Of a stretch of 64,000 nucleotides of DNA, positions 17,623-63,480 are shown one piece after another. Origin of the DNA: Lobosporangium transversale (lineage: Eukaryota); contig NW_019028997.1 of NCBI RefSeq assembly GCF_002105155.1, forward strand, positions 558,001-622,000, written 5' to 3'. Under the pieces are notes generated by a model. The model did no database searches. It worked only from the letters and a program-made list of their open reading frames with translations, and was not told the origin of the DNA. The translations under genes were made by a program, and so were the position numbers. How positions within the stretch are numbered: position 1 is the first letter of the stretch; each line of letters opens with the position of its first letter.

Positions 17623-20600
17623 TCACTCATATAAATGTGAGTACAGGTCCAAGTCAGTATCAAGGTCCAAACCGGCGTTAACCTCATTTGCCTCTATCAT
17701 TGCGACGCGCCCTTCATTCTCAATTGAGTTGTATCTCAAATACAGCTTTTTTAAAGTCCTATTAATCTTGAGCGCCTCAGACAGTGCCACAGCTCCTCCA
17801 TTCCCAATTGGGTTGTTATCCAGGTCCAAGGAGGTCAAAGTGCTATTAGTCTTGAGTGCCTCTGACAGTGCAAGAGCCCCCTCCTTCTCAATTGCGTTAC
17901 AATACAAGTTTAAAGTCGTCAAAGTACAGTTTGTCTTGAGTGCCTCTGATAGTGCAAGAGCTCCTTCATCCCCAGCTGAGTTGTTCGTCAAATCCAATGT
18001 AGTCAAAGTCCAGTTAGTCTTGAGTGCTCTTGACAGCGCCAGGACTCCTTCCTTCTTAATTGAGTTGCTACTCAAGTTCAGGGAGGTCAAAGTCCTCCTA
18101 GCCTTGAGTGCCTCTGATAGTGCAAGAGCCCCTTCATCCCCAATGGAGTTGTATCTCAAGTCTAGAGCAGTTAAAGTGGTGTTAGCCTTGAGGGCCTCTG
18201 ACAACGCCACAGCTCCTTCTTTCCTAATTGAGTTGGAACTCAAGTCCAAGGAGACCAAAGTAGAATTGGCCTTGAGTGCCTCTGACAGTGCAAGAACTCC
18301 TTCTTCCCCAATCGAGTTGCTTCCCAAGTCCAGAGTGGTCAAAGCAGTGTTAGTCTTGAGTGCCTCTGATAGCGCAAGAGCTCCTCCGTGCCCAATTGGG
18401 TTGTAATTCAAGTTCAAGGAGACCAAAGTGAGGTTAGCCTTGAGTGCCTCCGACAGTGAAAGAGCCCCTTCAGCCCCAATTGAGTTGCCTCCCAAGTTCA
18501 AATTGGTCAAAGTCCAGTTAGCCTTGAGTGCCTTCGATAGTGCAAGAGCCCCTTCCTTTCCAATTGAGGCATGATTCAAGTTCAAGGAGGTCAAAGTCGT
18601 ATTGGCCTTGAGCGCCTCTGAGATTGCACATGCGCCTTCCTCCCCGATTGGTTTGGAACTAAAATTTAAAGTAGTTAAGGTTGTGTTGATCTTCGATAGC
18701 AACAAAGCTCCTTCCTTTCCAAGTGGGCCGAAGTCCAAGTCTAAATTGAGCAAAGTTCTATTAACCTTGAGCGCCTCTAATAGTGCAAGAGCTCCTTCCT
18801 TCCCGATTGAATTGCCCATCAAATCCAATGTGGTCAAAGTCTTATTAGTCTTGAGCGCCTCTGACAGTGCCAGGGCTCCCCCATTGCCAATTGAGTTATC
18901 CCTCAAGTCCAAGGAGGTCAATGCTGGGTCAGCCTTGAGTGATTTTAAAAGCACTCGAAGTTCAGTAGTAGCCATCTTTCGAGGCCTCAGCCTAACGGAT
19001 AAATCCTTAAGGTATGGTGATCTTTTGGGTCGTAGATTGGAAAGTTCTATGAGATTCGGGGGTAGAACAATGTCAATTGTCCTTAAGTTGATAAGCTCCA
19101 TAATGCGAACAAGTATTTCATATCGCGTGGATGTTGAAAGCAATTTCCTGGTGGTGCTTTCTTGGAATTCTCCGAATTTAAGGTGAAGGGCTGATACGCT
19201 TGATCTTTTTATCACTTCTTCGAATGCTTCAAGATCAGCTTTGGTCCAGCTCCAGCTGAAGGTGATATCCAACTCGTAAACACGTCTTGCTTTGGCTAAC
19301 GCATCAAAGAATTCTCCAGCTGTAGTTCTAGACTTTAATGTAATAATCACTTTGCCGAGGTGCGAGTCATACTCGCCACCATTCCACTGCATTGTCTTTT
19401 CAAACGCCCTCTGTTCTTCTTCTCTATACGTCGAACGATAGTGATCAAGACAGACCCATTTGACATAGCCTGCTTCCGTCGTGATCCTGTACAAGTTGCC
19501 AAGTTGTTTGCCTTCGTCGGTAGTTTGAAGAAATGTATTTAGCTGTCGGAGATCAGCTCCTTCGAGTGCCTCACAGTTATCGATTGTGTTGATCTTGCTC
19601 AAGGCCGAATGCTCATCAGAGATTGCCTCCATATATTTGATTGAAGAATCAATAGCGGCACTGAAGTCCGAGGCTGGCGCGAGAGGATTAGCCAAGGGTG
19701 CCCCTATCTTGAGGCACTGTAAAAGGATGAACATGTACCTTCCATACTTGCGGAAGAACTCTGTGCTGTTTCGGATCTCATATCCTTCATGTTTGGCAAT
19801 ATGGATTTCGTTCCGTCTGCTTTTGCTTGCATCCACGGTGTGTTCTCCACATTCACATAGGAAATATAGGCGGACCTTGCTTCTCAGGGCATTCATTGGG
19901 TCCCACTTGGTGGTGTCGACAGGCAAGACTATAAAGAGTCGAGGGATCGGATATTCGTGTAGCTCGAAGTTCTGAATGAGGATAGCATTAGCGTGCTTTT
20001 GAAGGATGGCGAGTCTGTCTAAGGCCTGATGTTGCAGCTTAAGCATTTCATCGTCCTTCGCCTTCGCCTCCTGTTGCAGCTTAAACATTTCCATCTGCAT
20101 TTTAAGCATTTCGTCGTTCTTCTTCTTGGCTTCCTGTTGCAGTCTAAGTATCTCCGATTGTAGCTTAAGCACTTCGTCACTCTTTTTATCGATCTTTTGC
20201 AGCAGCTGTATACCCTTTTCAGAGCTGATCATATCGGTTTGTCCATTATTACGAGTAGTGAGGGATGAATTGAAAGGTGGGGTTGTCGTATTTGATAATG
20301 CTAAAGGAAGGTCTTGAGAGGCCAGATTTGTCGACTTCTCCAGGGAAGGTAAATCGGTGGCGGTGCTTGAGTTGTCGAACTGCGGTACCCATGTGATGAC
20401 GTCCAGGATCTTGCCAGGATAGAACGCAATGCGTGGGGGTTCGATTCTAATTGAACAAAAGAAAGAGACCATACCCAATTGAGTTTTTCACTTTTTTTTT
20501 TTTTTTTTTTTTTTTTTCTTTCAGGAAAGTTGATAAGACAGACACATTAGGCACAGTTATAAAATACTACTACCTGTTGCCATCAGAGTCTTCAAGGAAT

Positions 20601-20776
20601 GGGATGGGATGTCCATTCAACTTGAAGCGCAATGCATCTGGAAACACGTCTTGAATGTCTCTCAACTTTACATAAGATGACGAGCTGCCATTACTTGCAG
20701 AGGTGGAGGGAGTTCTGACACAAACTTCTTCAATGATGCCAGCATTTTGAAATCTTTGATATCGTTGAGTCATCAT
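17623..20776 (-). CDS. LRR family paralog 1 (intact): N-domain, coiled coil, PRLF/CECGEH domain, about 15 RI-like 28-aa LRRs
   Basis: Exon 1 20776-20574, GT..AG intron 20573-20447, exon 2 20446-17623, joining ...DGNR/IEPPRIAFYP. Repeats LxxLDLxxNSIGxEGALALSEALKxN. Confidence 0.9.
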
Positions 20777-20868
20777 GGAGGTAATTTGATGGATGATGAT
20801 GAAAAGGATGAAAGGATGAAACAGATGAAAAGACTCCTTCCATTTTATGGGTGCATGAGATGCATTGA

Positions 20869-20903
<35 letters not shown>

Positions 20904-21489
20904 CCGCAGGATAGGTCTTTGTCTAGATGAATAGTCTCTTGTGATTAGATGGATCCTTCTGTCAGAGCTGGCCACTTTGTTGTACATACAGCTAGCAAGA
21001 AAGACAGTTTGGTTCAGAAAAACAAAGATCTGAAATGGATATGAAAAGAAGCATTCACTTCAGACCCATTTCATGCAATGCCAACCATAACCACATTGAC
21101 CTCTTGAACAAAAAGTGAATACATTCATTCTTGACTGATGAAGTTTGTTGCAAGCATTGCAATAAAGCTGCTCAAGTGGCTGAAGATACTTTCCTCCGTT
21201 TAGAGTTCAATCAGACCCTGAAAACGATGGTAGGCCCTGAAATGGAATGCAAATACACCATTCCCTGTTGTAGAAATGGAAAGAAAGTCGCCTTTATCCA
21301 CAAATGAAGGGACGGAGGTCTGAAAGGATAGTGTCTGAATGCAAAGGGATCCCTTTACCCTTTCTAAAAAGATGTTGCATTGACTGGCAAGTAAGAAATA
21401 AGGTATTAGCAGTATATCCATACTCAAAACCAAAATACACTGTAATGTTGATAGGATAATATCATCCTCATATATTCTTCTCTCACCAG

Positions 21490-21640
21490 TCGACTTTGCT
21501 GGTGCTTTTTTTTTTTTTTTTTTTTTTTAACTTCAATTTTGAGGTCAGGTACATTAGCATTTAGTACAATCATGCCTTTGAACACGCTAAACATAGGCCC
21601 ATCTGTTTACAAAGCAGAAAAGCTCTTGTTTTATTGTTGC
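21490..21640 (-). pseudogene. Crinkler (CRN)-like N-terminal domain relic
   Basis: Minus strand reads ELFCFV..(frameshift)..VFKGMIVLNANVPDLKIEVKKK, resembling the CRN LFCLV...F.V......V.DLK..IK motif. Upstream flank (about 21810-21990) is homologous to about 59020-59210. Confidence 0.5.
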
Positions 21641-23358: not shown

Positions 23359-23391
<33 letters not shown>

Positions 23392-23512
23392 TTCATTTTT
23401 GACTATTACAGTAAATATCTATATTTATGGGTTTTCAAGAGTACTGGAGTAAGGAAAAGCATCGGTAATGATGGGGAGAAGGAGTCATAGAGGCATGTGA
23501 AGTAAACGAGAT

Positions 23513-24188: not shown

Positions 24189-25733
24189 TTACAAGATCTC
24201 GGAGAGTATTTTTTTTGCGACCTTCAAATTCTTGTTAGAAATCGCTTTGGAGAACTCATTCGAAAGGTCTGAAAGAACTTTCTCTGCCTCTTCATTGCCA
24301 GTGACAACAAGTTCTCTACTGCCCGGAAAAAGACCAAGCAGTCTCCTTGTAATATTTGCAGCCTCTGAGTGGTCGTCTTGCTGCGGTTCTTCAATGTCAC
24401 AAAAATGCAGAGTAATCTTGGCCTCCTTGTTTTGCCTTGCCCTTATTGCAAGGCTCCGAAAGACAAGACTAAGAGGTACCTTGTACTGCGAGAGTGAGAA
24501 AATGGTAACAGGCGTTAAGTAGAGTGAGCCATATCCCAGCAATGCTTCCCGACGTGCTGTATAGGTGGTAGGATGACCAAACCCACTTCTTACTTGTGCG
24601 AGGCCAAGGATGTCACTTGAGAGCAATCCTGGATCTTGAACTTCGTTTTTAATGAACATTTTAGTTGATCGATCCACCTTGAATGCAGCACATCGATTGG
24701 GACCTACAAAAGCGAATGTTTGGTTTCCCTGAGACTTGTCGTTGTTTTTGTATAAACCTGAGGTAATAAGATAATTGCAGGCTCTTGCTCCAATAACAAG
24801 TTTATTGCGTTTGTATCGGTCGTGGACTAAAGTAATCTTGATTCTTGCTTTGTATTGTGTCGCTTCAGAATCAATGGGGATACTGGATGGGGAAGCATTT
24901 TCAGACTCTGCATGTGGGTCGCTTATTGTATCTCGAGCATATACCTCAGCACAAAGGATTTTTAAGGTACTTTTTCCCGTTTGCAAAATAGCACCGACAA
25001 CTCGCCTCAACCCATTGATTCCACCGGACTCAATCTCGGACATGTGCTCTACAGTTATTTCTCGATGGGTTGTGAATATATCGTCATTTTCCACGGAATG
25101 GTAACCGTCGGAAGGATTTATTTCTGAGATAATATATTCAGGCTTGAGGGCTTTTCGGAAAAAATCGAGCGACTGTAGCGGAAATATCCCTGCTTCCAAT
25201 CCTCCTTTGGAGCAGATTTTGAATACACCCGCTTGCATTGATCCTACAGTCGCCTCGAACATTTTAGGTGGCACATCCCCACGAATCCTCTTTAAAAGCT
25301 TTTGATCCTCCATGTGGTCTTTCACTCGTTTCCTTTGACATGTTCCTTCGGATATTCCAGACTTAATGCTTTCATTGTCAGTATTTTCACTTTCAGTTAG
25401 ATCATCCTCGGAAGAGACTTGTGTAAGGCTTTGCTTATCTGCTGTTAGTGTATTCTCTTGAAAAACCTGCGTACAGTCATATGCAACTGCGGTGTCCACA
25501 CACTGCTTTGAGCCATCATTTGTGAGACCAGTTGTCCCATGCTCCATTTCATCCCGCACGACGCACACATCGACCGCATTAGCAGATTTGGAGTGGATTT
25601 TCATGAAGTGCCTTCGAGCTTTTTTCTTAGAAATCGTACATAAACAGACAGGACAAACCACGCGATCCCCCTTGTAGCTTCCTTTGGGAACATTATCAAA
25701 TACAATCTCTTTGTCCCCAATGTGAATTTCCAT
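24189..25733 (-). CDS. Orphan 514-aa protein with an N-terminal C2H2/BED-like zinc finger
   Basis: Uninterrupted ORF from MEIHIGD (ATG at 25733). Contains CPVCLCTISKKKARRHFMKIH (C-x2-C-x11-H-x4-H), an acidic linker, a basic KRKRVK segment and a globular-looking C-terminal region I do not recognise. A homologous deleted copy lies at 36.5-36.9 kb. Confidence 0.7.
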   Translation of the reverse strand: MEIHIGDKEIVFDNVPKGSYKGDRVVCPVCLCTISKKKARRHFMKIHSKSANAVDVCVVRDEMEHGTTGLTNDGSKQCVDTAVAYDCTQVFQENTLTADKQSLTQVSSEDDLTESENTDNESIKSGISEGTCQRKRVKDHMEDQKLLKRIRGDVPPKMFEATVGSMQAGVFKICSKGGLEAGIFPLQSLDFFRKALKPEYIISEINPSDGYHSVENDDIFTTHREITVEHMSEIESGGINGLRRVVGAILQTGKSTLKILCAEVYARDTISDPHAESENASPSSIPIDSEATQYKARIKITLVHDRYKRNKLVIGARACNYLITSGLYKNNDKSQGNQTFAFVGPNRCAAFKVDRSTKMFIKNEVQDPGLLSSDILGLAQVRSGFGHPTTYTARREALLGYGSLYLTPVTIFSLSQYKVPLSLVFRSLAIRARQNKEAKITLHFCDIEEPQQDDHSEAANITRRLLGLFPGSRELVVTGNEEAEKVLSDLSNEFSKAISNKNLKVAKKILSEIL

Positions 25734-25752
25734 GGTACAATGTCTTCTAATG

Positions 25753-25783
<31 letters not shown>

Positions 25784-25831
25784 AAAAACATTGCCTGCAT
25801 CCGGACAAACAACAGGAATTGAGAGGTTACA

Positions 25832-26550
25832 GGGGACACCATACTAAAAAACATAAGAGGGGACACCATACTAAAAAACATAAGAGGGGACACCATACTA
25901 AAAAACATAAGAGGGGACACCATACTAAAAAACATAAGAGGGGACACCATACTAAAAAACATAAGAGGGGACACCATACTAAAAAACATAAGAGGGGACA
26001 CCATACTAAAAAACATAAGAGGGGACACCATACTAAAAAACATAAGAGGGGACACCATACTAAAAAACATAAGAGGGGACACCATACTAAAAAACATAAG
26101 AGGGGACACCATACTAAAAAACATAAGAGGGGACACCATACTAAAAAACATAAGAGGGGACACCATACTAAAAAACATAAGAGGGGACACCATACTAAAA
26201 AACATAAGAGGGGACACCATACTAAAAAACATAAGAGGGGACACCATACTAAAAAACATAAGAGGGGACACCATACTAAAAAACATAAGAGGGGACACCA
26301 TACTAAAAAACATAAGAGGGGACACCATACTAAAAAACATAAGAGGGGACACCATACTAAAAAACATAAGAGGGGACACCATACTAAAAAACATAAGAGG
26401 GGACACCATACTAAAAAACATAAGAGGGGACACCATACTAAAAAACATAAGAGGGGACACCATACTAAAAAACATAAGAGGGGACACCATACTAAAAAAC
26501 ATAAGAGGGGACACCATACTAAAAAACATAAGAGGGGACACCATACTAAA
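25832..26550. repeat. Perfect 27-bp minisatellite (GGGGACACCATACTAAAAAACATAAGA), 26 full units plus a partial one
   Basis: Seen directly. The ORF track shows 26 GHHTKKHKR units plus GHHTK. No spacers. Confidence 0.98.
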
Positions 26551-27631: not shown

Positions 27632-27662
<31 letters not shown>

Positions 27663-34721: not shown

Positions 34722-34758
<37 letters not shown>

Positions 34759-35554: not shown

Positions 35555-35589
<35 letters not shown>

Positions 35590-36340: not shown

Positions 36341-37048
36341 GCTAAGGTCGGCTGAGGCCAATCACTTTTTGTTGCACACATTTGTCCCAAAGAACAAACA
36401 TTTCTCTCTCCTTGTTGCTTTGTATTACTGTAAACTGGAAGGGGTGGCTCAAGGAGCAGGCTATGGTAACTATGAAAGTGATGAATAAAGTTATGGGTAT
36501 CGATTATGGTGATTCAGGATCGCTTTTACAAGATCTCGGAGAGTATTTTTTTTGCGACCTTCAAATTCTTGTTAGAAATCGCTTTGGAGAACTCATTCGA
36601 AAGATCTGAAAGAGCTCTCTCTGCCTCTTCATTGCCAGTGACAACAAGCTCTCTACTGTCCGAAAAAAGACCAAGCAGTCGCCTTGTAATATTTGCAGCA
36701 TCTGAGTGGTCGTCTTGCTGCGGTTCTTCAATGTCATAAAAATGCAGAGTAATCTTGGCCTGCTTGTTTTGCCCTGCCCTTATTGCAAGGCTCCGAAGGG
36801 CAAGACTTAGTGGTACCTTGTACTGAGAGAGTGAGAAAATGGTAACAGGCAGTAAGTAGAGTGAGCCATATCCCAGCAATGCTTCTGGACGTTCTGTATA
36901 TATCGTCAATTTCCATGGAATGGTAGCCATCGGAACAAACAACAGGAACTGAGAGAACAAAGGAGACACTACTCCAAAAATATAAGAGAATACCACACTT
37001 AAAACATTGGAGCGGACACCACACTAAAAGGCATAATAAACACATAAT
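36341..37048 (-). pseudogene. Internally deleted second copy of the 28S-end / orphan zinc-finger ORF / 27-bp-repeat cassette
   Basis: 36341-36385 resembles the final ~45 nt of LSU rRNA on the plus strand. About 36383-36900 matches 24041-24562, 36899-36935 matches 25077-25113, and 36936-37048 matches 25806 onward with about 3 diverged 27-bp units. Confidence 0.9.
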
Positions 37049-37850: not shown

Positions 37851-38325
37851 TAAATGTCATCTTGGCTCTATAGCCCATGCACATGAGGCCGTACATTATT
37901 GACGATGTATGCTTGATCTGTTTATTAGCTTATGTTATTCATGAGCCGATATTTATTCATTGAGCGCAATATTAAGTGCATAGCAAGCGTTTAATATATT
38001 ACAGTTGTTTCCAGACGATCATCAACCTATATTCATGAGTCTATACCCATGATACTACTAAATAAAACGAACTCTCAGCAGCCTTGGTATGCTAAGATTC
38101 CCTTTTAAAGAGAGAGACCAGACAGCGAAGGTTCAAAAGGCACCAATGTTATGAGCGTTTGTTACTATCAGTCAGCTTATTTGGATCAAACTAACATTCT
38201 TAACTATCGACTATATTGATGACCAAACCAATCAAATAAATCTAGCAATGGCCCATGTTTATCAGTCAGCATCGAGCGTGTTACACCACTGGGAATATTT
38301 GGGTGTCGGTTAAGGTACTCTCACA

Positions 38326-40348
38326 CATGAATGGCCAAAGTCGCGTTGGTCTTGCGTGCCTCTGACAGCGTAAGGGCTCCTTCGCCCCTGATTGAGTTGT
38401 ATCCCAGTTACAAGGTAGTGTTAACCTTGAGTGCCTGTGGCAGTACAAGAGCTCCTTCGCTCCCAACTGAGTTGCACCACAAGGCCAAAGTAGTCAAGGT
38501 TGTGTTAACCTTGAGTGCCTCTGACAGTGCAAGGGCTCCTTCGTCCCCAACTGAGTTGTACCGCAAGTTCAAACAAGTCAAGGTTGTGTTAATCTTGAGT
38601 GCCTGTGACAGTACAAGAGCTCCTTCCTTCCCAATTGAGTTGTACCGCAAGTCCAAAGCAGTCAAGGTTGTGTTAGCCTTGAGTGTCTCTGACAGTACAA
38701 GGGCTCCTTCATCCCCAATTGCTTTACTACTGAAGCTCAAAGAAGTCAAGGTTGTGTTCGTCTTCGACAGCAACAGAATTCCTTCCTTCCCAAGCGAGTC
38801 GTACTCCAAGTCCAAAGTGACCAAAGTTGTATTGGTCTTGAGCACTTCTAACAGTGCAAGAGCTCCTTCCTTCCCAATGGAGTTGCCCATCAAATCTAGT
38901 GTGGTCAAAGTCCTGTTAGCCTTGAGTCCCTCTGATAGTGCCATGACTCCTTTATCTCCAATTCGGTTGCACATCAAATCCAGCGTGGTCAAAGTCTTGT
39001 TAGTCTTGAGTGCTTCTGATAGTTCCAGAACTTATTCATCCCCAATTGAAAGGCCCTTCAAGTTCAACGTAGTAATAGCGTTATCGTCCCTGAGTGTATT
39101 TGCGAGTGATCGAAAGTCACTAGCATCAATCTCTCGAGGCTTCATCTCAATAGTTAGCTTTTGAAGGTGTGGTGGCCTGCTGAGCTGTAAACTGGGGACC
39201 TTTATAGTGTTCGGAGGTAAAACAATATGGATCGCCTTCATGCTGCTAAGTTCTATGATGTGAACAAGCATTCCATATCTGGGAGCCATTGAAAGTATTT
39301 CTTTGGTGGTGCTTTCTTGAAACTCTCCGAGTTCAAGCCGAAGGATCGATACACTTGACTTCTTTAGTGCTTCTTCAAATGCTTCAAGATCACTTTTACT
39401 CCAATTCCAGTCAAAACTGATATCCAACTCGTAAACACGTCTTGCATTGGTCAGCGCATTGAAGAATTCTTCAGCTGTGGTTTTGGATTTCAATGTGATG
39501 ATCACTTTGCCAAGGTGCAAGTCATATTCGCCGCCATTCAACCCCACTACCTTTTTGAACACTTTCTGTTCTGCTTCTCCATATGTCCAACGATAGTGAT
39601 CTATACAGACCCATTTGACATGGCCTGTCTCTGTCGTGATCCTGTACAAGTTGCCAAGTTGTTTATCTTCATCATTGTTTTGAAGGAATTTCCCCAGTTG
39701 CAGCTTAAGCATTTCATCGTCCTTCTTTCTGGCTTCCAGTAACAGGTCAATCACCATGTTGCTCTTTTCCAACATCATCTCTGCAATCGTTTTAAGGTTA
39801 GAGTTGATCATTTCAGTTTGTGCGTTGTCGCGAGTAGTAAGGATTGAGTTGAAAGAATGAACCAAGTTTGATAATGGGTAAAATATCCTGGGAGGCTAGA
39901 TTGGTTGGTACTCCCAACGCGGACAAACTGATGACGGCCATGCTGTTGCTGCTGGCACTGGTGCTACTATTACTGCTGCTATTACAGTTGCAGGCCTGTG
40001 GTTCTGCTGTAATGACGTCCAGGATCTTGTCAGGATAGAATGCAATGCGTGGGGGTTCGATTCTAGTAGGACGAAAGAAAAATCAAAGTTAGGATACGCA
40101 CTTACTTTTTGTTCCTGAGCAACACAAATGGTAAAATAAAACTCTTACCTGTTACCATTAGAGTCTTGAAGGAACAGGATGGGATGTCCATCCAACTTGA
40201 ATCGCTGTGCATCTGGAAACACATCCTGAATGTCTTGCAAACACACATAGTATGACGAGTCGCCATTGCTTGCCGAGATGGAAGCAATCCTGACACCGAC
40301 TTCTTCAATGATGTCAGCTTTTCGGAATCGTTGGTATTGTTGGGTCAT
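38326..40348 (-). pseudogene. LRR family paralog 2 (pseudogene)
   Basis: ATG 40348, intron 40148-40063. Frameshift near 39870, an in-frame deletion joining LKLQ to LGKFLQ that removes most of the PRLF/CECGEH domain, TAA at 39034-39032 and a further stop at 38410-38408. About 9 LRRs. Confidence 0.9.
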
Positions 40349-41299
40349 GGAGATGAGTCGAGGGATGATGATGAAAAGGAAGAATGAAAAGATTCGTTCA
40401 TTCTATTTTTTATGCATTTTCTTTTTTTTGCTTCGCCATTTGGTGACGCAGGTGAGAAATATGGCTGTAACGTACTTTCTTGTTGTTTAGAGCTTGATCT
40501 TGCTTGACATACTAGTTGTTTTTCCATCCATGGATACGATCCACTTGTGTCCTTGGCTTAAAGTAAAGTGCTCCTTGTTGAAGGCAAAGATGCTTTCGAA
40601 TGATGTTGCATCGATTATGACCAGACATGGTTATACCAACCAACAATGCCCTGCTTACGAAAGATAGTTCAGGCTTCGAGCTACCGACTACTATGTTAAG
40701 CAATAATGGCAGATAACGGAGCGATGACTATAAAATATCTGTAGTTTGCAATGGTACTCTAGTCAAGTTGATAAGAGCGGTAGCTCATAGCTTTATATTG
40801 ACTTCTGATGAAAAGGTGATGATCTGAAATTAGAGTATATGGCCCAGCACAATACAAAAGCTGATACTTTGATCATAAATTTGGACCGCTGCTGTCAATA
40901 TCCAATATCAAAACCGAAAATGCCATATGATTTTTACTTTACATAGCTGCCTCAGGGAGAGAGCTTGGTCGACAGATGTATTGGAGCATCTGTGCAGCAT
41001 GGACTTTCATACAAGTGGACCAGGACTTATAAAAAGCAAAGATTTGCACTTCCAGAGCTGAGTAAATGACTAGGTATACTATCCTTACCAATATCACAAT
41101 AATGGTGATCGACCATATCTTCCAAAGCTATCAACTCTTCAAGACCAAAAAGATATCATGACGCCAAATCCATGGTGATGAAGCAAGTCCTTGTGGAGAT
41201 ATTAAAGTAACAGTAAAAAATAACTAAAACACTCACTCAGTTATGCGTGTTAGTGCATGAAGAGCAAGTCTTGTCCAGACAAACAACGGCCCACTTCGT

Positions 41300-41640
41300 A
41301 CTCAATGGCTTTTAATTTTTCTTTGTTGTTCAATCGAGTCGAGCAGGAGAGACTTACTAATGGAGTTATATAGCTTATCATAAAATATCCTTTCAGAGAG
41401 AGAGGAGTATTCGAAACTCATTTGGATGCGTCGCACATAAAGAGCGACTTGGACAAGTAATTCTTCAGACTTAGGTCTATTCAATCGGGAATAATATTTG
41501 GAGAATGCTTGGAAACGCGACAAAAGGGAAGCTAACTCATTTGTGAAGACATTTGGAAGATATGTTGTAGATGATTAGAGGAGCATATACGGATAGTGAG
41601 GATAGTATGTAAGAGAGCGAGAAGTCCAAGGGTTCAAGAA
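41300..41640 (-). pseudogene. Degenerate repeated coding fragment, possibly an F-box-like N-terminus
   Basis: Reverse complement of about 63650-64000, with a partial copy at about 23100-23220. The 63.7 kb copy reads CLPYVFTNELAFLCRVSKH, reminiscent of F-box motifs. Confidence 0.35.
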
Positions 41641-41826
41641 AATGATGTAAAATTATTTTTTATTTCTTATTTTTATTTTATTTTAATTTCCATATTTTTG
41701 TTTTTATTTCTTATTTTTATTTCTTATTTTTTATTTCCTTAATTTAATTCTTATTTTATTTCTATTTACTATTTGTTTTTTTTTTTTTTTAATATTTTGT
41801 TTAATGATTTAATTTTATCTCACTTC

Positions 41827-42287
41827 TTTGTTTAAAAAATATAACAAGGCCAGAGTCAATAGCTGAATATCTATTTGTTCATGCTTATGCTTCCATATGC
41901 GAAGAGAAGAAAGGCGGACATTAAGAGAACAATATGACTTGTTGATGACACTTATCGCTTGTGGAGCTGCAAATGACGAGAGTAAGCATACATTTATTTA
42001 AATGCATTGTGCTTACTATCTTTTCATATTCCACTGAATTATCTTGAATAGTACTCTTCATAATGTACTCTTACTTCATTTAATCGCAGTCAGCCTCTTC
42101 AAAGGAAAGGAAGACAAACTTGGCTGGTGTTGTCAAGATACTCTGCCTCTATTCTTGATCAAGGGCTGGCTGCCTGTGAGCATGGGTGTGTAAATACAAC
42201 CGTCACTATGCTTATGTTATGGGCCTTTGTCCTGTTTAGTTTAACCACATCACACTACATGTTGCTCGTTGCTCATTGTCTAAATAA
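41827..42287. repeat. Near-identical ~460-bp direct duplication, copy A
   Basis: Matches 48511-48982 apart from a few small indels and substitutions. Lies upstream of LRR paralog 2. Confidence 0.93.
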
Positions 42288-43014
42288 GTTTCTTCCCTTG
42301 GAGTATGGGAGGTCTTTGCTTGCTCTGGTACCAAGAGGTATGAGAGGAGTATAGATGACATCAGAAGCGGATAATGAGCGGCATAGACTCCATGCATCTG
42401 CTGCTATTCGCTGTCTCAATTTCTAAATTTTTGCCACCAACAGGACGGACCAATAGATGTGAGAGATGTAAGGGCAATGGACGCGCGCACATCACATGAA
42501 TCTCTCTCGGCTCTTTTTGCTTGACCCTTCTTCTCCCTTGCTTCGTCTCTTTCACTATACAATCTCAGCATTAAATCGAATATTGAATCGATAGAGCGAT
42601 GAACAACGTTGGATGATGTCACTTGCCTCTTGGCTTTCAAAAACGAACATTTATAAAGGTGTCATCTGTCCACTCTTTCTCTTTTTCTTCTTTTCTTTAT
42701 CCTTCAACCACTTTGACGAAAATGAAAGGTAAGAAGCTCCACTCCCAAAAGAAAAAGATAAAAAAAACATATCCACTCTTACTTGATAAGAAAAAAAAAT
42801 AATGACCACAGCTCTCATACTTTGTGTTAACTGACTGTGATGCTAACTTTTTCTTTCTTTTCTTTTCTCTTTCGCTTTCTTTTTCAGTCACTACAACCAC
42901 AATAAGAGCTACCACGTCCCTTGACAGGCATCCAGGCTCTTGGCCTCTCTTCTGGCCGAACCTAGGACCGGCCTTCCCCAAGCCCGACGAAGGGCTTTGG
43001 TCGATGCCGATCCC

Positions 43015-47715: not shown

Positions 47716-48510
47716 TTTTCTTTTTTTCTTTTTTTTGGTGATTATTCGATGAATGATGACAAGCTGAAGGGTTTTCTCATTTTCATTTTCTGAGCAATGG
47801 AGTCGCCGACCATCTTTTTTTTTTTGTCTGGCTTTACCGCTTGAGTACAAAAGTACAAGGATACAGGTCTGTCGAATGCATTCATCTGCTGTGCCTAATA
47901 AATTAGAAAAGCTATCCACATGCACATGCAGTCTTTGATTGGCTCTCAAATGATGACTACAGACACAATTAAGTGCGCCTTGGGCTGTTGATACAGTACG
48001 GACCACATAATGGCGCCGTATCATTCTCTCTTCTTGCAAATTTCCTGAAATACCACCCACCCTGACAACTGAACTAAGGTGCTTTCCTCATCCTTGTGCT
48101 TGTCCTCCCGGTCACCTTTGAGCTCTTCAACAATGTTATCTTTGTCACTGGCAGAGGGTACTTTGTGAAATATTCCTCAATCGATGGTCTACTGTAGTTG
48201 AAAGGAGTATCTGTTCCGTATAAACGCTAATGGAGGAGTTAATCCTCATGTGGGAACTAACGGAAGGCGTAGCTGGAGGGAGATCATACGGAGAGTATGG
48301 ACAGTGTATAGGAGAGCGAGAAAATGAATTAAGTCCAAGGGTTCCAGGAAATGAAGTAAGGAATTTTTTTATTTTTATTTTACATTTTTTATTTTTATTT
48401 TACATTTTTTATTTTTATTTTACATTTTTTATTTTTATTCCATATTTTATTTTTTATTCCATATTTTTTATTTCGTATTTTTATTTGTTTTTTATTTATT
48501 TTATATTTAT

Positions 48511-48982
48511 TTTGTTTAAAAAATATAGCAAGGCCAGAGTCAATAGCTGAATATCTACTTGTTCATGCTTATGCTTATGCTTCCATATGCGAAGAGAAGA
48601 AAGGCGGACATTAAGAGAACATTATGACTTGTTGATGACACTTATCGCTTGTGGAGCTGCAAATGACGAGAGTAAGCATACATTTATTTAAATGCATTGT
48701 GCTTACTATCTTTTCATATTCCACTGAATTATCTTGAATAGTACTCTTCATAATGTACTCTTACTTCATTTAATCGCAGTCAGCCTCTTCAAAGGAAAGG
48801 AGGGAAAGACAAACTTGGCTGGTGTTGTCAAGATACTCTGCCTCTATTCTTGATCAAGGGCTGGCTGCCTGTGAGCATGGGTGTGCAAATGCGGTGCCAC
48901 TGTGCTTATGTTATGGGCCTTTGTCCTATTTACTTTAGCCACATCACACTACATGTTACTTGTTGCTCATTGTCCAAATAAA
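48511..48982. repeat. Near-identical ~460-bp direct duplication, copy B
   Basis: Matches 41827-42287. Lies upstream of LRR paralog 3. Confidence 0.93.
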
Positions 48983-50943: not shown

Positions 50944-53475
50944 ATGACTCAACAGTACCAACAATTCCGAAAAGCTGGCATCATTGAAGAAGTCGGTGTC
51001 AGGACTGCCTCCATCTCTGCAAGCAATGGCAACTCATCATACTATGTGTGTTTACAAGACATTCAGGATGTGTTTCCAGATGCACAGCGATTCAAGCTGG
51101 ATGAACATCCCATCCTGTTCCTTCAAGACTCTAATGGCAACAGGTAAAGTATTTATTTATCGTATGTGTTGCTCAGGAACAAAAAGTAAGAGAACTCAAT
51201 TGCATATCCTAAGTTTTGTTTTTACTTTTGTCCTATTAGAATCGAACCCCCATGCATTGCATTCTATCCTGACAAGATCCTGGATGTCATTACAGATGGA
51301 CCACAGGTCTGCAATAATAATAGCAGCAGTAATAGTAGCAGCTCCAGCCTTAAAACGACTACGGATTTGATCCTAGAGACTAAAGAAAACGCCAAAAAGA
51401 TGCTTGACTTGTTACTGGAAGCCAAAAAGAAGGACGACGAAATGCTTAAACTGCAGCAGCAAGTTCTTGACAGACTTGCTATCCTTATCCAGAACTTTGA
51501 GTTACATGAGTACCCAATCCCTCGACTCTTTATAGTCCTGCCTGTTGACACCACCAAGTGGGACCCAAGGAATATCCTGAGGAGCAAGTTCCGCCTTCAT
51601 TTCCTTTGTGAATGTGGAGAGCACACTGCAACGATAAGCAAAAGCAATCAGAACCAGATCCATATTGCCAAACATGAAGGATATGACATCCGAAACAGCA
51701 CAGAGTTCTTTCGCAAGTATGGAAAGTACATGCTTATCCTTTTACATTCTCTCAAAATGGGGATGCCTTTGACAGCTTCCCTGGTACCAACTCCTAATCT
51801 CGATGCCGGTATCGACTATTCGATCAAATATATGGAAGCACTCCCTAATGAGTACCCAGTCTTGAGCAAGATCAACAAAATCGGTGAGTGTGAGGCACTT
51901 GAAGAAGCCGATCTTCGGCAACTGGGGAAATTCCTTCAAAACAATGATGAAGACAAACAACTTGGCAACTTGTACAGCATCACGACAGAGACAGGCCATG
52001 TCAAATGGGTCTGTTTTGATCACTATCGCTCAACATATAGAGAAGCAGAACAAAAAGCGTTCGAAAAGGTAGTGGAGCTGAATGGCGGCGAATATGACTT
52101 GCACCTAGGCAAAGTGACCATCATATTGAAGACCAAAACAACAGCTGAAGAATTCTTCAATGTGCTGACCGATGCGAGACGTGTTTACGAGTTGGATATC
52201 AGTTTTGACTGGAATTGGAGTAAAAGTGATCTTGAAGCATTTGAAGAAGCACTAAAGAAGTCAAGTGTATCGATCCTTCGGCTTGAACTCGGAGAGTTTC
52301 AAGAAAGCACCACCAAAGAAATACTTTCAATGGCTCCCAGATATGGAATGCTTGTTCACATCATAGAACTTAGCAGCATGAAGGCGATCCATATTGTTTT
52401 ACCTCCGAACACTATAAAGGCCCCCAGTTTACGACTCAGCAGGCCACCACACCTTCAAAAGCTAACTATTGAGATGAAGCCTCGAGAGATTGATGCTAGT
52501 GACTTTCGATCACTCGCAAATACACTCAGGGACGATAACGCTATTACTACGTTGAACTTGAAGGGCCTTTCAATTGGGGATGAATAAGTTCTGGAACTAT
52601 CAGAAGCACTCAAGACTAACAAGACTTTGACCACGCTGGATTTGATGTGCAACCGAATTGGGAAGGAAGGAGCTCTTGCACTGTTAGAAGCACTCAAGAC
52701 TAATACAACTTTGATTACTTTGGACATGGAGTACGACTCGCTTGGAAAGGAAGGGGCTCTGTTACTGTCGAAGACGAATACAACTTTGACTTGTTTGGAC
52801 TTCAGTAGTAAATCAATTGGGGATGAAGGAGCTCTTGCACTGTCAGAGGCGCTCAAGATCAACACAACCTTGACTACTTTGAACTTGCGTTACAGCTCAA
52901 TTGGGAAGAAAGGAGCTCTTGCACTGTCAGATGCACTTAAGACTAACACAACCTTGAGTATTTTGCGCTTGAGGCACAACTTAATTGGGAAGGAAGGGGC
53001 TCTTGCGCTGTCAGAGGCACTCAAGGCCAACACATCCTTGACTACTTTGGACTTGTTCAGCAACGCCATTGGGAAGGAAGGAGCTCTTGCGCTGTCAGAG
53101 GCACTCAAAGCTAACGCTACCTTGACAACTCTGGACTTGAGGTACAACTCAATTGGGAATAAAGGAACATTTGCATTATCAGAGGCACTCAAGGCTAACG
53201 CATCCTTGACTACTTTGGACTTGAGGCACAACTCAATTGGGGATGATGGGGCCCTTGCACTGTCAGAGGCACTCAAGGTCAATACAACTTTGACTACTTT
53301 GAACTTGCATTACAACTCAATTGGGAAGGAAGGAGTTCTTGCGCTGTCAGAAGCGCTCAAGACTAACGCCACATTGACTAAATTGGACTTGAGGGACAAC
53401 TCAATTGGAAAGGAAGAAGCCCTTGCACTGTCTGAGGTGCTCAAGACTATTGCGGCGCGGATCCGTTTTACGTGA
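50944..53475 (+). pseudogene. LRR family paralog 4, interrupted only by one in-frame TAA (52585-52587) in the first LRR; about 11 LRRs
   Basis: ATG 50944, intron 51144-51239. Exon 2 is in frame to ..LSIGDE-TAA-VLELSEALKTNKTL.. and then stays open in the same frame to 53475. Confidence 0.85.
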
Positions 53476-54172: not shown

Positions 54173-56659
54173 CTATTCAAATACTATTGTGATGGTCGCC
54201 TCTAGTAGTGCAAGAGCTCCTTCCTTTCCAATTGGGTTCCTCCACAAATCCAAGGCAGTCAAAGCTATATTAGTCTTGAGTGCCATTGACAATGCAAGGG
54301 CTCCTTCATTCCCAATTGAGTTGTCGGACAAGTCCAAACCAGTTAAGGTTGTGTTAATCTTGAGAGCCTCTGACAGTGCAAGAGCTCCTTCATTCCCAAT
54401 TGAGTTGTATCCCAGTTTCAAGGTAGTCAAAGTAGTGTTAGTCGCGAGCGTCTCTGACAGTGCAAGAACTCCTTCTTTCCCAATTGAATTGTTTCCCAGG
54501 CCTAGAGCGGTCAAAGTAGTGTTAACCTTGAGTGCCTCTGACAGTGCAAGGGCTCCTCCATTCCCAATTGAGTTGTAATGCAGGTTCAAGAAGGTCAAAG
54601 TGACGTTAGTCTTGAGCGCTTCTGACAGTGAATGAGCTCCTTCTTCCCCGATTGCATTGCTGGACAAGTGTAAAATAGTCAAAGTGGTGTTAGTCATGAG
54701 TGCCTCAGATAGTGCAAAAGCTCCTTCTTTTCCCATTGAGTTGCTGGACAAGTTTAAGGTAGTCAAATTAGTGTTAGACTTGAGCGCCTCTGACAGTGCA
54801 AGAGCTCCTTCATTCCCAATCGAGCTGTTCCTCATGTCCAAAGTGGTTAAAACCGTGTCGGTCTTGAGCGCATTTACAAGTACTCGAAGTTCACTAGGTT
54901 CAATCCTCCGAGATCTCAGCTCAATTGATAACTTGTGAAGGTTTGGTGATCTTTCGAGTCTTAGGGTGGAGAACTCGATAGATTTTGGGGGTAGGATAAT
55001 ATGAACCGCCCCCAAGATGGGAAGCCCTATGATACGAGAAAGTATTTGATATCGCGTAGATGACGAAAAAAACTTCCAGATATTACTTTCTTGAAACTCT
55101 CCGAGTTCAAGCTGAAGGATCGATATACTTGACCCTCTAAGTACTTCTCTTAATGCTTCAAGATCAGCTGTAGTCCAATTCCATCTGAATGTAATATCCA
55201 ACTCGTAAATTCGCTCTACATTCGCCAGCGCATCATAGAATTCTTTAGCTGCGGTTCTGGATTTTAACGTGATAGTTACTTTGCCAATCTGCAAGTCATA
55301 TTCACCGCCGCCATTCAACTCCATTGCTTTCTCAAACGCTATCTGTTCTTCGTCTCTATACATCGAAAGATAGTGATCAAAACAAACCCACTTGGCATGC
55401 CCTGTTTCCGATGTGACTCTGTACAAGCTGCCAAGTTTATTTTCTCCATTCTTGGTTTGAAGAAATGTACCCAGTTGCCGAAGATCTGCCCCTTCAAGTT
55501 CAAGGGCCACATAGTCATCAACTGCGTTGATGTTCTTCAAGGCCGAATACTCATTTGCGAGCGCTTTCATATAGTCGAGCGAATAATTGATACCAGCATC
55601 GAGATATGAGGTTGGCATCAGAGAAGCCGTCATGGGCATTTCCAACTTGAGCCACTGTAAAAGGATGACCATGTATTTCCCATACTTGCGGAAGAACTCT
55701 ATACTGCTTCGAACTCCATATCCATAATGTTGAGTAATGTGAATTTGGCTCTGATTTCTATCGCTTGCTGATGCGGTATGATCTCCACACTCGCAAAGGA
55801 AATGAAGGCGAAACTTTTTCCCCAAGACATTTCTTGGGTCCCACTTGTCAGTATCGTCAGGCAAGATTATAAAGAGTCGAGGGACTGGGTGCTCGTGTAG
55901 TTCAAAGTTCTGAGCGAGGGCGGCGCTGACGTGCTTTTGAAGGATGGCGCATCTATAGGGGGATTGATATTGCAGTTTAAGCATCTCATCGTCCTTCTTT
56001 TTGGTCTCCTGTTGCAGCTTAAGCATTTCAAATTGCACTTTAAGCATCTCCGATTGTAGTTGAAGCATTTGCTGCAGTCCAGATGTTCCGTCGCCCTGCT
56101 TATCGATCTTTTGCGGTAACTCTATACTCTTTTCGGAGTTAAATATCTCGGTTTGTCCAATGTTGTGAGGAGTGAGGGATGACTCGAAAGATGGAGGAGC
56201 CGTGTTTGATAATGATAAAGGAAGATCTTGGGATGTTAGGTTGGTCGACTTCTCCAAGAAAGGTAAAGTGAGGACAATGTTACTGTTACTGTTACTGTAC
56301 TGGGGTACTCCCGTAATGACGTCCAGGACCTTGTCAGGATAGAAAGCAATCCGTGGAGGCTCGATTCTAATGGGGCAGAAAAATAAATTAATTTGTTCCT
56401 GAGTTGATGTTAGGCACATTCGAAGTCATGATAGGACAAACAAACGCTCTCACCTGTTGCCATCACGGTCTTGGAGGAACAGGATGGGATGTCCATCCAA
56501 CTTGAATCGCTGTGCATCTGGAAACACATCCTGAATGTCTTGCAAACACACATAGTATGACGAGTCGCCATTTCTTGCAGAGATGGAAGCAATCCTGACA
56601 CCAACTTCTTCAATGATGTCGCTGTCAGCTTTTCGGAATCGTTGGTATTGTTGAGTCAT
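54173..56659 (-). CDS. LRR family paralog 5 (intact), about 8 LRRs
   Basis: ATG 56659, intron 56453-56367, exon 2 56366-54173 open. Confidence 0.9.
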
Positions 56660-59585: not shown

Positions 59586-61062
59586 TTAGATGGTGAACAG
59601 GCTTGACAGTAAGATTACTGATCCTGCGACCAATACAGCCTGGGTCTTTGGAAGGGCTGCAGGGTTGATGATGAGCCCATTCGCATTGTTAGGGTGGCTA
59701 TTCCTATTGTTTGCAGAAGTTTCATTGCCACTGCTTCCACTCAATTTGAAAGTGCCTGCGCCTTCCCTATAGGGCTTGCCATCATTCAAACACTGAGCAA
59801 TTGGTTGCATCACAAGGCTCTTGGTCTCATAAGCAACAGGCAACACACCGTTCAGGGCAACGTCCACCTCTTGAGCGAATAGATCGTGTTGCAAAACAAT
59901 GAACCCAGTACTGAGAGATGGGATCTTGGTGAGCCAAGTTTTGAAGGTATCGACAACGGATTGAGGTGTAGCAGTGCCACCAGGGATGTTCCAGTCGTTT
60001 GTATCAAATCCCTGTGTCCAGATAGAGGTCTTCAGTCCAAGCTGAGTAGCAATATTGCGAACACGAGCATCAATATCGCCTAAAAATAAAAAAATAAAAT
60101 AAAAAAAAGAAGCATAGGAATGTGTTAGGGTTGCAACTAATCCGCTTTGAAATAAACATTAAGACTATTGACAAAGCCAACCCCCATTATGAATTACCGA
60201 AGGGAGGACGCCAGTAAAGAGGAGTGACACCGATGACATCAAAGATTGCCTTCTCCGTCCACTTGAGTTCAGCAACGATCTGCTCATTGGTCAGGCTGGT
60301 CATGGAGTGGTGAGACCAGGTGTGGATGGCAATGTGGTGTCCCTCATCATAAGCACGCTTCAAAGTGGCGGGGTAGCTGATAGCACGAGAACCGACGATG
60401 AACAGTGTGGCTTTCTGGTTGTGAGCAAGGAGGTTATCGTAAAGACGAGGTGAATCAGGCGAAGGACCGTCTGGAGTTGAAAATAAAAGTAAAAATAAAC
60501 AGTCATACGTTAGGTAATTGTGCCGGTTTAATTGTTAAACAAAGGCTTTTTTAACAATGTCAAATACTTCAAACTGCCAATGTACTCCTTTGAGGGAAAT
60601 GAGGCGAGGAACAATAAAAATAAAGAAAAATAGTAATAATAATAATTGTATGTAAATAAAGCCATTCTTATTCTTACCATCGTAGGTCAAGCCCCAGGTA
60701 CCTGGAGTAGGGCATGTGGTGATGTCGTCGGAGGCTTCACACTTTTGACAAGTCCACCAACATTGTTCCTTTGGAAGACTGGAGGTGGGGTTAGGACAAA
60801 CACCTTCATTAGAGGGAGGGAAGACAGGGGCCTTTGAGAGATCGACCAGCTTTAACCACTCCTGGACTTGTGGATCCTGTGTGAAGGGAACGCAATCAAT
60901 GGTTGGGTATTTTCCCTTTTCAACAGGGGTGTATTGTTGAGGGCAAGTAGGGCCAGCTCTCTTGTCTAGATGAGTATGACCATGGGAATGAGCAGAGACA
61001 AGGGAGAGGGAAGAGGAAAGGGAGAGGATTGCAGCTGCAACTGTGAAGCTGATCTTGACCAT
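59586..61062 (-). CDS. Chitin deacetylase (CE4), secreted, probably GPI-anchored
   Basis: Exons 61062-60678, 60470-60198 and 60079-59586. Signal peptide, CWWTC..C..WGLTYDDGPS, HTWSH, RPPFGDID, DTNDW, GFIVLQHD all intact; hydrophobic C-terminus. Confidence 0.95.
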
Positions 61063-62299
61063 AATTGCTGATGATATGATATGATATATGATATGAAAGA
61101 AAAAAAAAATAAAAAATAAAAAATAAAAAAGTTCAGGGATGGGTAGGACTGAAGAGTGTGGGAAAGAGGAGGAAGAAGTGAATGAAAAAAAGATATTTTT
61201 AAGAGGAATGTCTAGTAAAGAGATGAAAGAAGATATAAAGATAAAGAAGATGAAGATGAAGGGGCCACTTTTTATATACGAATCAAAGGTGCAAAGGAAT
61301 GACCGTTGGGGAAGCAGTGACGAAAGATTCGATCCGATCCAATGCAAAATACAGATACGATATCCATGTAAACATCGACATAAACATAAACATATAAACA
61401 TAGACATAAACAATTACAAATGATGCTAAATTACAAAGAATGATTTCAGGACAGGTGTCCCCCCCTGACAATGCAGAGCTATTGTTACATGTCTGTTACT
61501 TCCTCATTGTCTTTAGTGTGTTTGTCGATATTATTTTTAAACCGTTAGACTTGGATCGCCCCTTTGCTTAGTCTCCATTTGGATGACAAAATACAACTTT
61601 TACTGTCATTCTTTGCCATGAATGGTGTCTAGTCTGGCCAAGTGGACAGGGTGCACCATTACGGAGTTGTAATTTAGTTAAATGTGCCATATTTTATTTT
61701 ACATGTACATGTACATGTATACACACATATACATATTATATATATACATGTTATATTACATTTATATTATTACTGCATCTTTATATGTTATATCTGTACA
61801 GTCTACTAGACTACTACATGTACGCCATGTAGAAGGAAAAGCCAGATGTTATAAATATATATACCAACAACTCGTCTTCGTGAATGAATAAAGTGTCCAT
61901 GTACGCACAGACATGCTAAAAAAGTTTTTTCCCCGTCTGCATCCCTGTCTACTCCATCTCTTCCTTACTCTGTACACATGCTCTGTTCTGGGGGAGAAGA
62001 AACATCCACTGCCAACTACACTCATGTAAAAAGGTACATTGGTATAAAAAATATCATTACAGAAAAGCATACATCCACTTTTATACATTTCATACAGGAG
62101 ACATGTACATTGTACGGCTCTACCTGTAACAACGCACATAAACAGTAGTAGAACCCATTGTTAAAGTGGTCCCTATTCCATATATTATTATTCCTCGGTC
62201 GAATGACAATTCATGCATAGCAAAGTGGCGATGCTGGAATCGAGAAATGGGCACATCTTTTCATCTTTTCATCATCCATCGAATAATCACCACCAAAAA

Positions 62300-63480
62300 C
62301 GACACTACATCTGTACTAACAGTTCTGAATGGCTGGCAACAACATCATTGGAAAAGTTTATGTCAGAACCGCCTCTGCCTCTGTAAGCAACGGTAACTCG
62401 TCATACAATGTCAATCCGAGAGACATTCGACACATGTTTCCAGATGCAATGCGCTTCAAGCTGGATGGACGTCCCATCTCATTTCTCAAAGACTCTGATG
62501 CCTCTGAAAAAAAAAAAAGAAAAGAAAAAAAAAAAAGAGTCTGCGCATGGCATTCTATCCTAACGAGATCCTGGACGTCATTACAGGAGTACGCAGCTCA
62601 GCAACAGCAATGTTGCCATCAGTATGTCTTGCTTGAGGGAGTCAGTAAACCCGGCCTCGCAGGATCTTCCTTTAGTATCATCAAATACGACTACTCCATC
62701 TTTCAATTCTTCCCTCACTACCCCCAATAATGGACAAACCGAGATGATCAACACTAGTCTTGGAAAGGGTATAGAGCTATTGCTAGAGGTCAAAGACTAG
62801 AGCGACGAAAGCCTCAAATTATAATTAGATGCCGAGGTGAAAGACTACCAAATGCTTAAACTGCAATCGGAGGTACTTAGGCTACAGCAGGAGAGTAGGA
62901 CGAAGAATAATGAAATACTTAAACTGCAACGTCAAGCCCTCGACAGACTTGACATCCTTCAGAAACATGTTAACGTTATTCGCATCCAGAACTTTGAGCA
63001 AAACGAGTATTCAATCCCTTGACTCTTAAAAATCTTGCCTGTTGATACAGCCAAGTAGAATTAGAACAAGAGGCGTTTGGAAATGCGGTGAAATTGAATG
63101 GCAACACATATGACTTTGTAAATTAACCATCACATTGGAATCCAGAATTACAGCCCAACAACTCTTTGATACGTTGACCAACGCGAGACGTCTTTACGGG
63201 TTGGACAGCACATTCAATTGGAATTAGGCCAAAGCTGATTTTGAAGCGTTTGAGAAAGTACTAAGGAAGTCAAATGCATCAATCCTTTGACTTGAACTTG
63301 GGGGCTTCCAAGGAAGTACTGGAGCTTCATTATATTGAAGCTACTGGAATTTGAATACTTGTAAATTCACTCAAGGCCCAACCTAGCCTTGACCTGCTTG
63401 GATTTGAACGACAAAATAATTGGAGATGAAGAAACTCTTATACTGTCAGAGGCACTCAAGACTAACAGCACTCTGGCCCT
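62300..63480 (+). pseudogene. LRR family paralog 6 (heavily decayed)
   Basis: Fragments VYVRTASASVSNGNSSY..DIRHMFPDAMRFKLDGRPISFLKDSD, AFYPNEILDVITG, QALDRLDILQKHVNVIRIQNFE and a single LRR remnant (IGDEETLILSEALKTN), with many stops and deletions. Confidence 0.88.

What the first reader, a model, noticed from the sequence alone, without database searches (positions are those of the whole stretch)
17623..63480. Cluster of six NBD-less LRR receptor-like genes undergoing birth and death: candidate non-canonical fungal immune system
Seen: six paralogs. The five well-preserved copies share one intron position (GNR/IEPP) and one architecture: ~85-aa N-domain, variable coiled coil, conserved Cys/His domain, linker, and RI-like 28-aa LRR array. 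Three are intact (17.6, 44.2, 54.2 kb), one has a single stop and two are decayed, in mixed orientations. No Walker A/NACHT/NB-ARC is visible. Established: fungal NLRs normally use WD40/ANK/TPR sensors with an NBD, and clustering, pseudogenisation and repeat-number variation are hallmarks of non-self recognition genes. Inference: a sensor-effector family without an NBD that may detect bacteria or competitors.
Basis: partly seen in the sequence, partly recalled or inferred. Interest (0 to 1): 0.88.

Follow-up and report, generated by a model that had tools for sequence, protein, structure and literature searches.

The report
GTPase-less Roco-derived fungal LRR family
Six copies of a fast-duplicating soil-fungus gene, four with all parts present, join leucine-rich repeats to an unnamed domain also found at the tail of bacterial and plant Roco GTPases; they likely act as immune sensors without the usual nucleotide switch.

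Summary
The cluster is real: six paralogs, three intact (A, C, E), one with a single stop (D) and two broken (B, F). Corrections: B and F have lost most of the Cys/His domain, B is a mosaic that shares D's stop, and the 'linker' is predicted degenerate LRR. The genes belong to a Mortierellaceae-wide expansion (1291 clusters at 50% identity; at least 24 proteins in one Lobosporangium transversale annotation set). New: the coil plus Cys/His domain has no Pfam or PDB match, but it is homologous to the C-terminal domain of bacterial LRR-Roc-COR proteins (HHalign 99.8%; 99.2% without the search motif) and, more weakly, of plant TORNADO1. In bacteria it sits where Roco defence proteins carry effectors. 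The fungal genes put it before the LRRs and lack the GTPase. Core domains are under purifying selection; LRR positions 7-8 give omega about 1.9 in one codon test but not in another. Copy C is covered in a run that splices B's intron. Best reading: a switch-less intracellular non-self sensor (0.5). No function was tested, and alleles in two annotation sets are almost identical.

The parts
17623..20776 (-). Copy A, intact, 1008 aa; exon 1 20776-20574, intron 20573-20447, exon 2 20446-17623
   Evidence: identical over 1007 aa to P0124
19396..19998 (-). Cys/His domain of copy A (Roco C-terminal domain); C265, H283, C400, H403 are the predicted zinc ligands
   Evidence: no Pfam or PDB match
18922..19419 (-).
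   Evidence: AlphaFold model; model residues 228-400 match LRR solenoids, best Z 10.6, rmsd 4.0, 162 aligned
17670..18921 (-). Ribonuclease-inhibitor-like 28-aa LRR array of copy A
   Evidence: Pfam LRR_6 E 5e-68; 14 copies of 84 bp
38321..40348 (-). Copy B, mosaic pseudogene: intron 40148-40063, frameshift near 39870, in-frame deletion of most of the Cys/His domain near 39700, stops at 39034-39032 (shared with D) and 38410-38408
   Evidence: the same deleted form is annotated as P0406
44181..47715 (-). Copy C, intact, 1139 aa, about 23 LRRs; intron 47506-47392
   Evidence: covered by contigs of run X5
50944..53475 (+). Copy D, one TAA at 52585-52587 at the start of the LRR array; intron 51144-51239
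   Evidence: P0008 and P0125 are annotated around the same stop
54173..56659 (-). Copy E, intact, 799 aa, 8 regular LRRs; intron 56453-56367
   Evidence: identical to P0057 over 682 aa
62329..63480 (+). Copy F, relic: N-domain, coil and cap fragments, one LRR remnant, Cys/His core missing, many stops and frameshifts

Best explanation
These genes join a coil and Cys/His domain homologous to the tail of Roco proteins to an LRR array, lack the GTPase, and likely work as intracellular non-self sensors. Shown: the order N-domain, coil, Cys/His domain, LRR solenoid; the homology; the absence of Roc-COR; turnover and sequence exchange among copies; purifying selection on the core. Inferred: the LRR face binds foreign or non-self proteins inside the hypha, for example from endobacteria, viruses or competitors. 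Binding would unmask or cluster the coil and Cys/His module (a predicted C-H-C-H zinc fold), which would signal directly or through a partner such as an NLR, with the N-domain as an exchangeable adaptor. LRR autoinhibition would replace the GTP switch.
For: Homology: HHalign fungal versus bacterial C-termini 99.8%, E 1e-27; with the search motif removed 99.2%, E 2.6e-18; 17 of 56 bacterial regions reach 20 bits against 0 of 1120 shuffles and 0 of 56 reversals. 51 of 57 long motif-bearing bacterial ORFs also hit Roc-COR. Of 20 chosen ORFs, 19 have COR-B and 13 have Roc. Kaur et al. 2021 (PMC8195603, section 15) describe this position as the effector slot of predicted counter-invader proteins. 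Expansion: 1373 proteins and 1291 clusters at 50% identity. Pairwise dN/dS is 0.22-0.38 in the Cys/His domain and 0.25-0.67 in the N-domain. Across 47 repeats, positions 7-8 give omega 1.86 (2dlnL 13.5) with a shared synonymous rate, while framework positions give 0.01-0.3. Module swapping: Sel1 repeats (P0255), an ARM_5-NACHT fusion (P0224) and a Crinkler header (P0040). No clear signal or membrane segment. Splicing and cover of copy C in run X5.
Against: No ligand, partner or phenotype is known. Alleles in two annotation sets are almost identical (7 of 7 pairs, 0-3 real differences); whether the sets are independent isolates was not determined. With the rate left free, IQ-TREE gives omega 0.72 for positions 7-8. 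The pre-chosen concave set (3, 5, 7, 8, 10) gives only 1.29 (2dlnL 4.9). Positions 13, 25 and 27, off the concave strand, are equally fast, and exchange among repeats can inflate such tests. The effector role of the bacterial slot is itself a prediction. The plant homolog TORNADO1 acts in leaf patterning (PMC4104024), so the domain is not immune-specific.
Confidence: 0.5

Rival explanations
1. Outward-acting, Crinkler-like effectors: the N-domain is a delivery header, and the Cys/His-LRR part acts on targets in bacteria, other fungi, plants or nematodes.
For: P0040 has a Crinkler header (E 7e-21) in place of the N-domain. P0129 is annotated as fused to a P-loop NTPase region that I read, from recall, as Crinkler-type; another annotation splits it into separate genes. 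Crinkler headers need no signal peptide (PMC5289972 passages).
Against: One Crinkler swap was seen. The N-domain does not resemble that header (HHalign 0.2%). Crinkler headers also occur on fungal NLRs (PMC9815663). No enzymatic toxin domain was found.
Confidence: 0.2
2. Sensors or decoys that are inactive alone and signal only through a separate helper NLR (ARM_5-NACHT type) or a Roc GTPase in trans.
For: P0224 joins ARM_5-NACHT to the coil, Cys/His domain and cap on a 4113-bp contig. Mortierellales carry NLR expansions (PMC9815663, PMC12258605 passages).
Against: 1 such fusion among 291 proteins screened, possibly a gene-model artefact; no NACHT or Roc gene in the window.
Confidence: 0.13
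3. A largely neutral expansion driven by repeats and segmental duplication, with a structural or ubiquitin-adaptor role for a few copies.
For: Three of six copies are broken. There are duplicated flanks and exact shared tracts, near-identical alleles, and a free-rate omega below 1.
Against: Purifying selection on the core in all 6 pairs of A, C, D and E; invariant Cys/His across kingdoms; retention across many Mortierellaceae genera; splicing.
Confidence: 0.14
4. Housekeeping RNI-like protein (RanGAP, CARMIL or tropomodulin-like).
For: Fold matches of the LRR part include CARMIL, tropomodulin and RanGAP.
Against: These matches cover only the LRR solenoid at 6-17% identity, tied with NLR LRRs. 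The family is multi-copy, lineage-restricted and often broken.
Confidence: 0.03

Closest known systems
Bacterial LRR-Roc(AP-GTPase)-COR proteins (Kaur et al. 2021, PMC8195603)
   Same: Homologous coil plus Cys/His domain; LRRs; several paralogs per genome; many gene fragments.
   Different: No Roc-COR; the domain lies before the LRRs, not at the C-terminus; RI-like 28-aa LRRs instead of LRR_8 type; an extra N-domain.
Plant TORNADO1 (Roco)
   Same: Homologous C-terminal domain (bacteria versus plant 94%, fungus versus plant 78% local and 95% global; reversed control 1%); RI-like LRRs; the precomputed family PF27087 on both.
   Different: TORNADO1 keeps Roc-COR, is highly conserved and acts in development.
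Fungal NLRs (NACHT or NB-ARC with WD40, ANK or TPR)
   Same: Tripartite layout, clustering, repeat turnover; one fusion with NACHT (P0224).
   Different: No STAND NTPase; LRR sensor.
Brown algal ROCO candidate immune receptors (PMC11378527)
   Same: Expanded LRR repertoire with diversifying repeats.
   Different: They keep Roc-COR and encode each LRR on its own exon; here the array lies in one exon.
Crinkler (CR) proteins
   Same: Exchangeable N-terminal header (P0040); one adjacent NTPase gene (P0129).
   Different: The usual N-domain is not Crinkler-like by profile; no enzymatic toxin tail.

Membership tests
Roco proteins | Roc GTPase followed by COR | tested here: not met
   No Pfam Roc or COR in A, C, E; Roc-COR seeds hit 0 of 291 family-search proteins and no window ORF. 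Only the top hits of each search could be seen.
Roco proteins | C-terminal coil plus Cys/His domain of one Roco subgroup | tested here: met
NLR (STAND) | NACHT or NB-ARC domain with Walker A | tested here: not met
   NACHT in 1 of 291 proteins (P0224)
NLR (STAND) | C-terminal repeat sensor | tested here: met
   LRR_6 arrays
NLR (STAND) | Known N-terminal effector domain (HeLo, TIR, CARD, CC, amyloid) | tested here: inconclusive
   The N-domain has no consistent Pfam or PDB match; it was not folded
Non-self recognition genes | Diversifying selection on the sensor surface | tested here: inconclusive
   omega 1.86 at positions 7-8 with a shared synonymous rate; 0.72 with a free rate
Non-self recognition genes | High allelic diversity between isolates | tested here: inconclusive
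   7 of 7 pairs nearly identical; independence of the two sets not determined
Non-self recognition genes | Ligand-triggered defence or cell death | not testable with these tools
   needs experiment
Crinkler effectors | Crinkler ubiquitin-like header (PF20147) | tested here: not met
   Absent from the window copies; profile comparison 0.2%; present only in P0040
Zinc-binding domain | Four conserved Cys/His ligands that meet in space | tested here: inconclusive
   C, H, C, H are 98-100% conserved in 90 fungal, 56 bacterial and 117 plant sequences (the last pair was selected for in bacteria and plants). Geometry was not inspected.

The most novel reading that the evidence does not exclude
Mortierellaceae have built a large LRR-based innate immune repertoire from a Roco protein by discarding its GTPase switch and moving its C-terminal zinc domain in front of the sensor. 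That domain is an undescribed signalling or killing module of new fold, shared by multicellular bacteria, plants (TORNADO1) and fungi.
Probability: 0.35. Interest if true: 0.92.

Novelty: new variant of a known kind. Interest (0 to 1): 0.73.

Why it matters
Fungi are described as lacking LRR pattern-recognition receptors (PMC2939053, abstract), as lacking ROCO genes (PMC4104024, passage), and as using WD40, ANK or TPR sensors in NLRs. A Roco-derived LRR family with over a thousand sequence clusters in one fungal family would be an exception on all three counts. It would also be a natural test of whether a repeat receptor can work without a nucleotide switch. Independently of the immune reading, it defines a roughly 200-aa domain with no Pfam or PDB match here that ends bacterial Roco proteins and plant TORNADO1, and makes its function testable in yeast or E. 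coli.

Tried and rejected
No whole genome was held, so copy number comes from protein searches. The ESM Atlas gave no answer. tblastn against plasmids and a degenerate scan of GTDB with fungal motifs (70 pattern matches, 0 confirmed) missed the bacterial homologs; a motif scan found them. Fold searches with the Cys/His model (pLDDT 71, pTM 0.71) found nothing: best Z 3.8, no Foldseek hit at E 0.001; absence is not proof of a new fold. A two-copy complex prediction gave no verdict. NCBIfam and PADLOC gave no relevant match. The fungal post-domain region is not specially like TORNADO1's N-terminal LRRs (69%, generic LRR), so head-to-tail permutation of a TORNADO1-like gene is not supported. A recalled likeness of the N-domain to the TDP-43 N-terminal fold got no support from Pfam or PDB sequence searches. 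I first read P0036 as an allele of B; P0406 is B's annotated twin on the same contig, so P0036 is a further paralog. The run search listed no holder on record as RNA. No tree of the domain was built, so donor and direction of transfer are open. Zhang et al. 2016 on Crinklers was not held. Three look-ups of earlier findings were empty.
Full report
Observation. tblastn with copy C finds six loci. Five have a GT-AG intron at GNR/IEPP. Spliced models give A 1008 aa, C 1139 aa and E 799 aa without stops, and D 515 aa, TAA, 295 aa. B has a frameshift, an in-frame deletion that joins the coil to the last part of the Cys/His domain, and two stops; F is a relic without that domain. B is a mosaic, with exact tracts of 244 and 227 nt shared with D (the second includes D's stop), 227 nt with C and 98 nt with E. 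The 84-bp arrays hold about 4 to 23 units. Only 1 of 2075 window ORFs has a Walker A motif, and it is unrelated.

Organism and family. Proteins identical to A and E, and to B and D apart from how the annotation skips their breaks, are annotated as Lobosporangium transversale. The Cys/His domain finds 1373 proteins of 353-2000 aa; every named one among the 120 listed is from Mortierellaceae. It finds 1291 clusters at 50% identity, of which 150 were listed. One annotation set holds at least 24 members on 9 contigs, 7 of them on one contig, so clustering extends beyond this window (counted). Of 267 proteins held, 155 had the plain order N-domain then Cys/His domain, 63 of them with typical LRRs. 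Variants include Sel1 repeats (P0255), ARM_5-NACHT (P0224) and a Crinkler header (P0040). The N-domain profile found 48 proteins, all Mortierellaceae (only 7994 candidates scored), and has no consistent Pfam or PDB match.

Structure. An AlphaFold model of coil, domain and 'linker' (pLDDT 78) matches LRR solenoids over residues 228-400 (best Z 10.6, rmsd 4.0, 162 aligned; NLRP1 LRR Z 9.9). The linker is therefore predicted to be a cap plus degenerate LRRs. The Cys/His domain alone (pLDDT 71) has no match among 48161 chains (best Z 3.8) or by Foldseek, and no Pfam family.

Origin of the Cys/His domain. I recalled a likeness to the ends of bacterial Roco proteins and tested it. In the first 79 loci, 57 motif ORFs were 300 aa or longer, and 51 of them hit a Roc-COR seed. 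Of 20 ORFs I chose, mostly long ones, 19 have COR-B, 17 COR-A and 13 Roc. The motif lies a few residues from the stop in most. Profile comparison of 90 fungal and 56 bacterial regions gives 99.8%, E 1e-27 over 229 columns including the coil. With the motif cut away it gives 99.2%, E 2.6e-18, and 17 of 56 regions reach 20 bits against 0 of 1120 shuffles. A second recalled motif fetched 13 metagenome loci whose relatives are named TORNADO 1. Their tails match the bacterial profile at 94% and the fungal one at 78% (local) or 95% (global), with reversed controls at 1%. One Cys, one His and the WxCxxH pair are 98-100% conserved in all three groups, which suggests a discontinuous zinc site (inference). 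Roc-COR seeds hit 0 of 291 family-search proteins.

Literature seen. Kaur et al. 2021 (PMC8195603: passages, section 15 whole, first places of one supplement) describe bacterial LRR + AP-GTPase + COR proteins with at least 24 effector domains at the C-terminus. Their table lists a 961-aa Polyangium fumosum protein with nothing named after COR. Locus L053 of that species has a 968-codon ORF ending in this domain, probably the same protein (not checked by sequence). Passages only: PMC7159879, PMC4104024 (fungi lack ROCO; TORNADO1 in leaf patterning), PMC11378527, PMC9815663, PMC5289972, PMC12258605, PMC10197012, PMC10507103. Abstract only: PMC2939053. Eight searches listed no paper on this family or domain. 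The library lacks most subscription papers, Zhang et al. 2016 was not held, and unread supplements or Pfam releases newer than the local copy may name the domain.

Evolution. Pairwise dN/dS among A, C, D and E is 0.22-0.38 in the Cys/His domain, 0.25-0.67 in the N-domain and 0.32-0.47 in the cap region. Over 47 regular repeats, positions 7 and 8 are the most variable (3.3 and 3.0 bits); their nonsynonymous distances are 0.71 and 0.51 against 0.34 at fourfold sites. A codon model with a shared synonymous rate gives omega 1.86 for positions 7-8 (2dlnL 13.5), 1.29 for the pre-chosen concave set, about 1.8-1.9 also at 13, 25 and 27, and 0.01-0.3 at framework positions. With the rate free, omega at 7-8 is 0.72 on a tree about 2.7 times longer than for the other positions. 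Diversifying selection is therefore suggested, not established. Against a balanced-allele picture, 7 of 7 pairs from two annotation sets differ by 0-3 real residues; the sets may not be independent.

Expression. In run X5 (kind guessed as RNA), two contigs skip exactly the 86-nt intron of B, which may come from B or from its paralog P0036. Contigs cover copy C with no differing letters, and the bins between the genes at 40356-42854 have depth 0-1.7 where the DNA runs mostly have cover. This is one run, as contigs, with no level or condition.

Mechanism. The most likely reading (0.5) is a switch-less intracellular sensor: variable LRRs bind a foreign protein, and the coil plus Cys/His module, which sits in the effector slot of bacterial Roco proteins, is released or clustered and signals. 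Rivals are an exported Crinkler-like effector (0.2), neutral expansion (0.14), a sensor needing a helper NLR (0.13) and a housekeeping role (0.03). All functional steps are inferred.

Verdict. The family is neither an NLR nor a Roco protein by their defining domains. It is a rearranged, GTPase-less relative of a Roco subgroup, expanded across Mortierellaceae. New variant of a known kind; interest 0.73.

Noticed in passing
window 24192-25826 (-), partial copy at 36376-37023 (-): ORF of about 514 aa with an N-terminal CxxC...HxxxxH motif and a Walker A-like motif; no Pfam, NCBIfam, PADLOC or PDB match. Its 3' part is duplicated at 94%. Possibly a mobile element.
   Followed up: partly
window 25831-26550: Perfect 27-bp tandem repeat, 26.7 copies at 100% match, directly upstream of that ORF.
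   Followed up: no
window 41672-42287 / 48364-48981 and 41310-41624 / 63682-63995: Duplicated non-coding stretches (89% and 87%) between family copies; possible substrates for unequal crossover.
   Followed up: no
window 5205-16627 and 59589-61413: Ordinary neighbours: C2H2 zinc-finger factor, two polysaccharide deacetylases, MTHFR and a HIT protein.
   Followed up: partly
L001-L079: Many bacterial motif hits are frameshifted or isolated fragments of Roco tails; L014 and L038 hold two copies. This suggests birth and death of these genes in bacteria too.
   Followed up: partly
L122-L134; P0274-P0393: The C-terminus of plant TORNADO1 is the same Cys/His domain as in bacterial Roco tails; not found described in the papers searched.
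   Followed up: yes
P0224: Linnemannia exigua protein joining ARM_5-NACHT to the coil, Cys/His domain and cap; real fusion or gene-model artefact unresolved.
   Followed up: partly
P0394: The family's N-domain fused to an Ifi-6-16-like hydrophobic region (precomputed PF06140; family name recalled) without the Cys/His domain, a hint that the N-domain is a mobile header.
   Followed up: no
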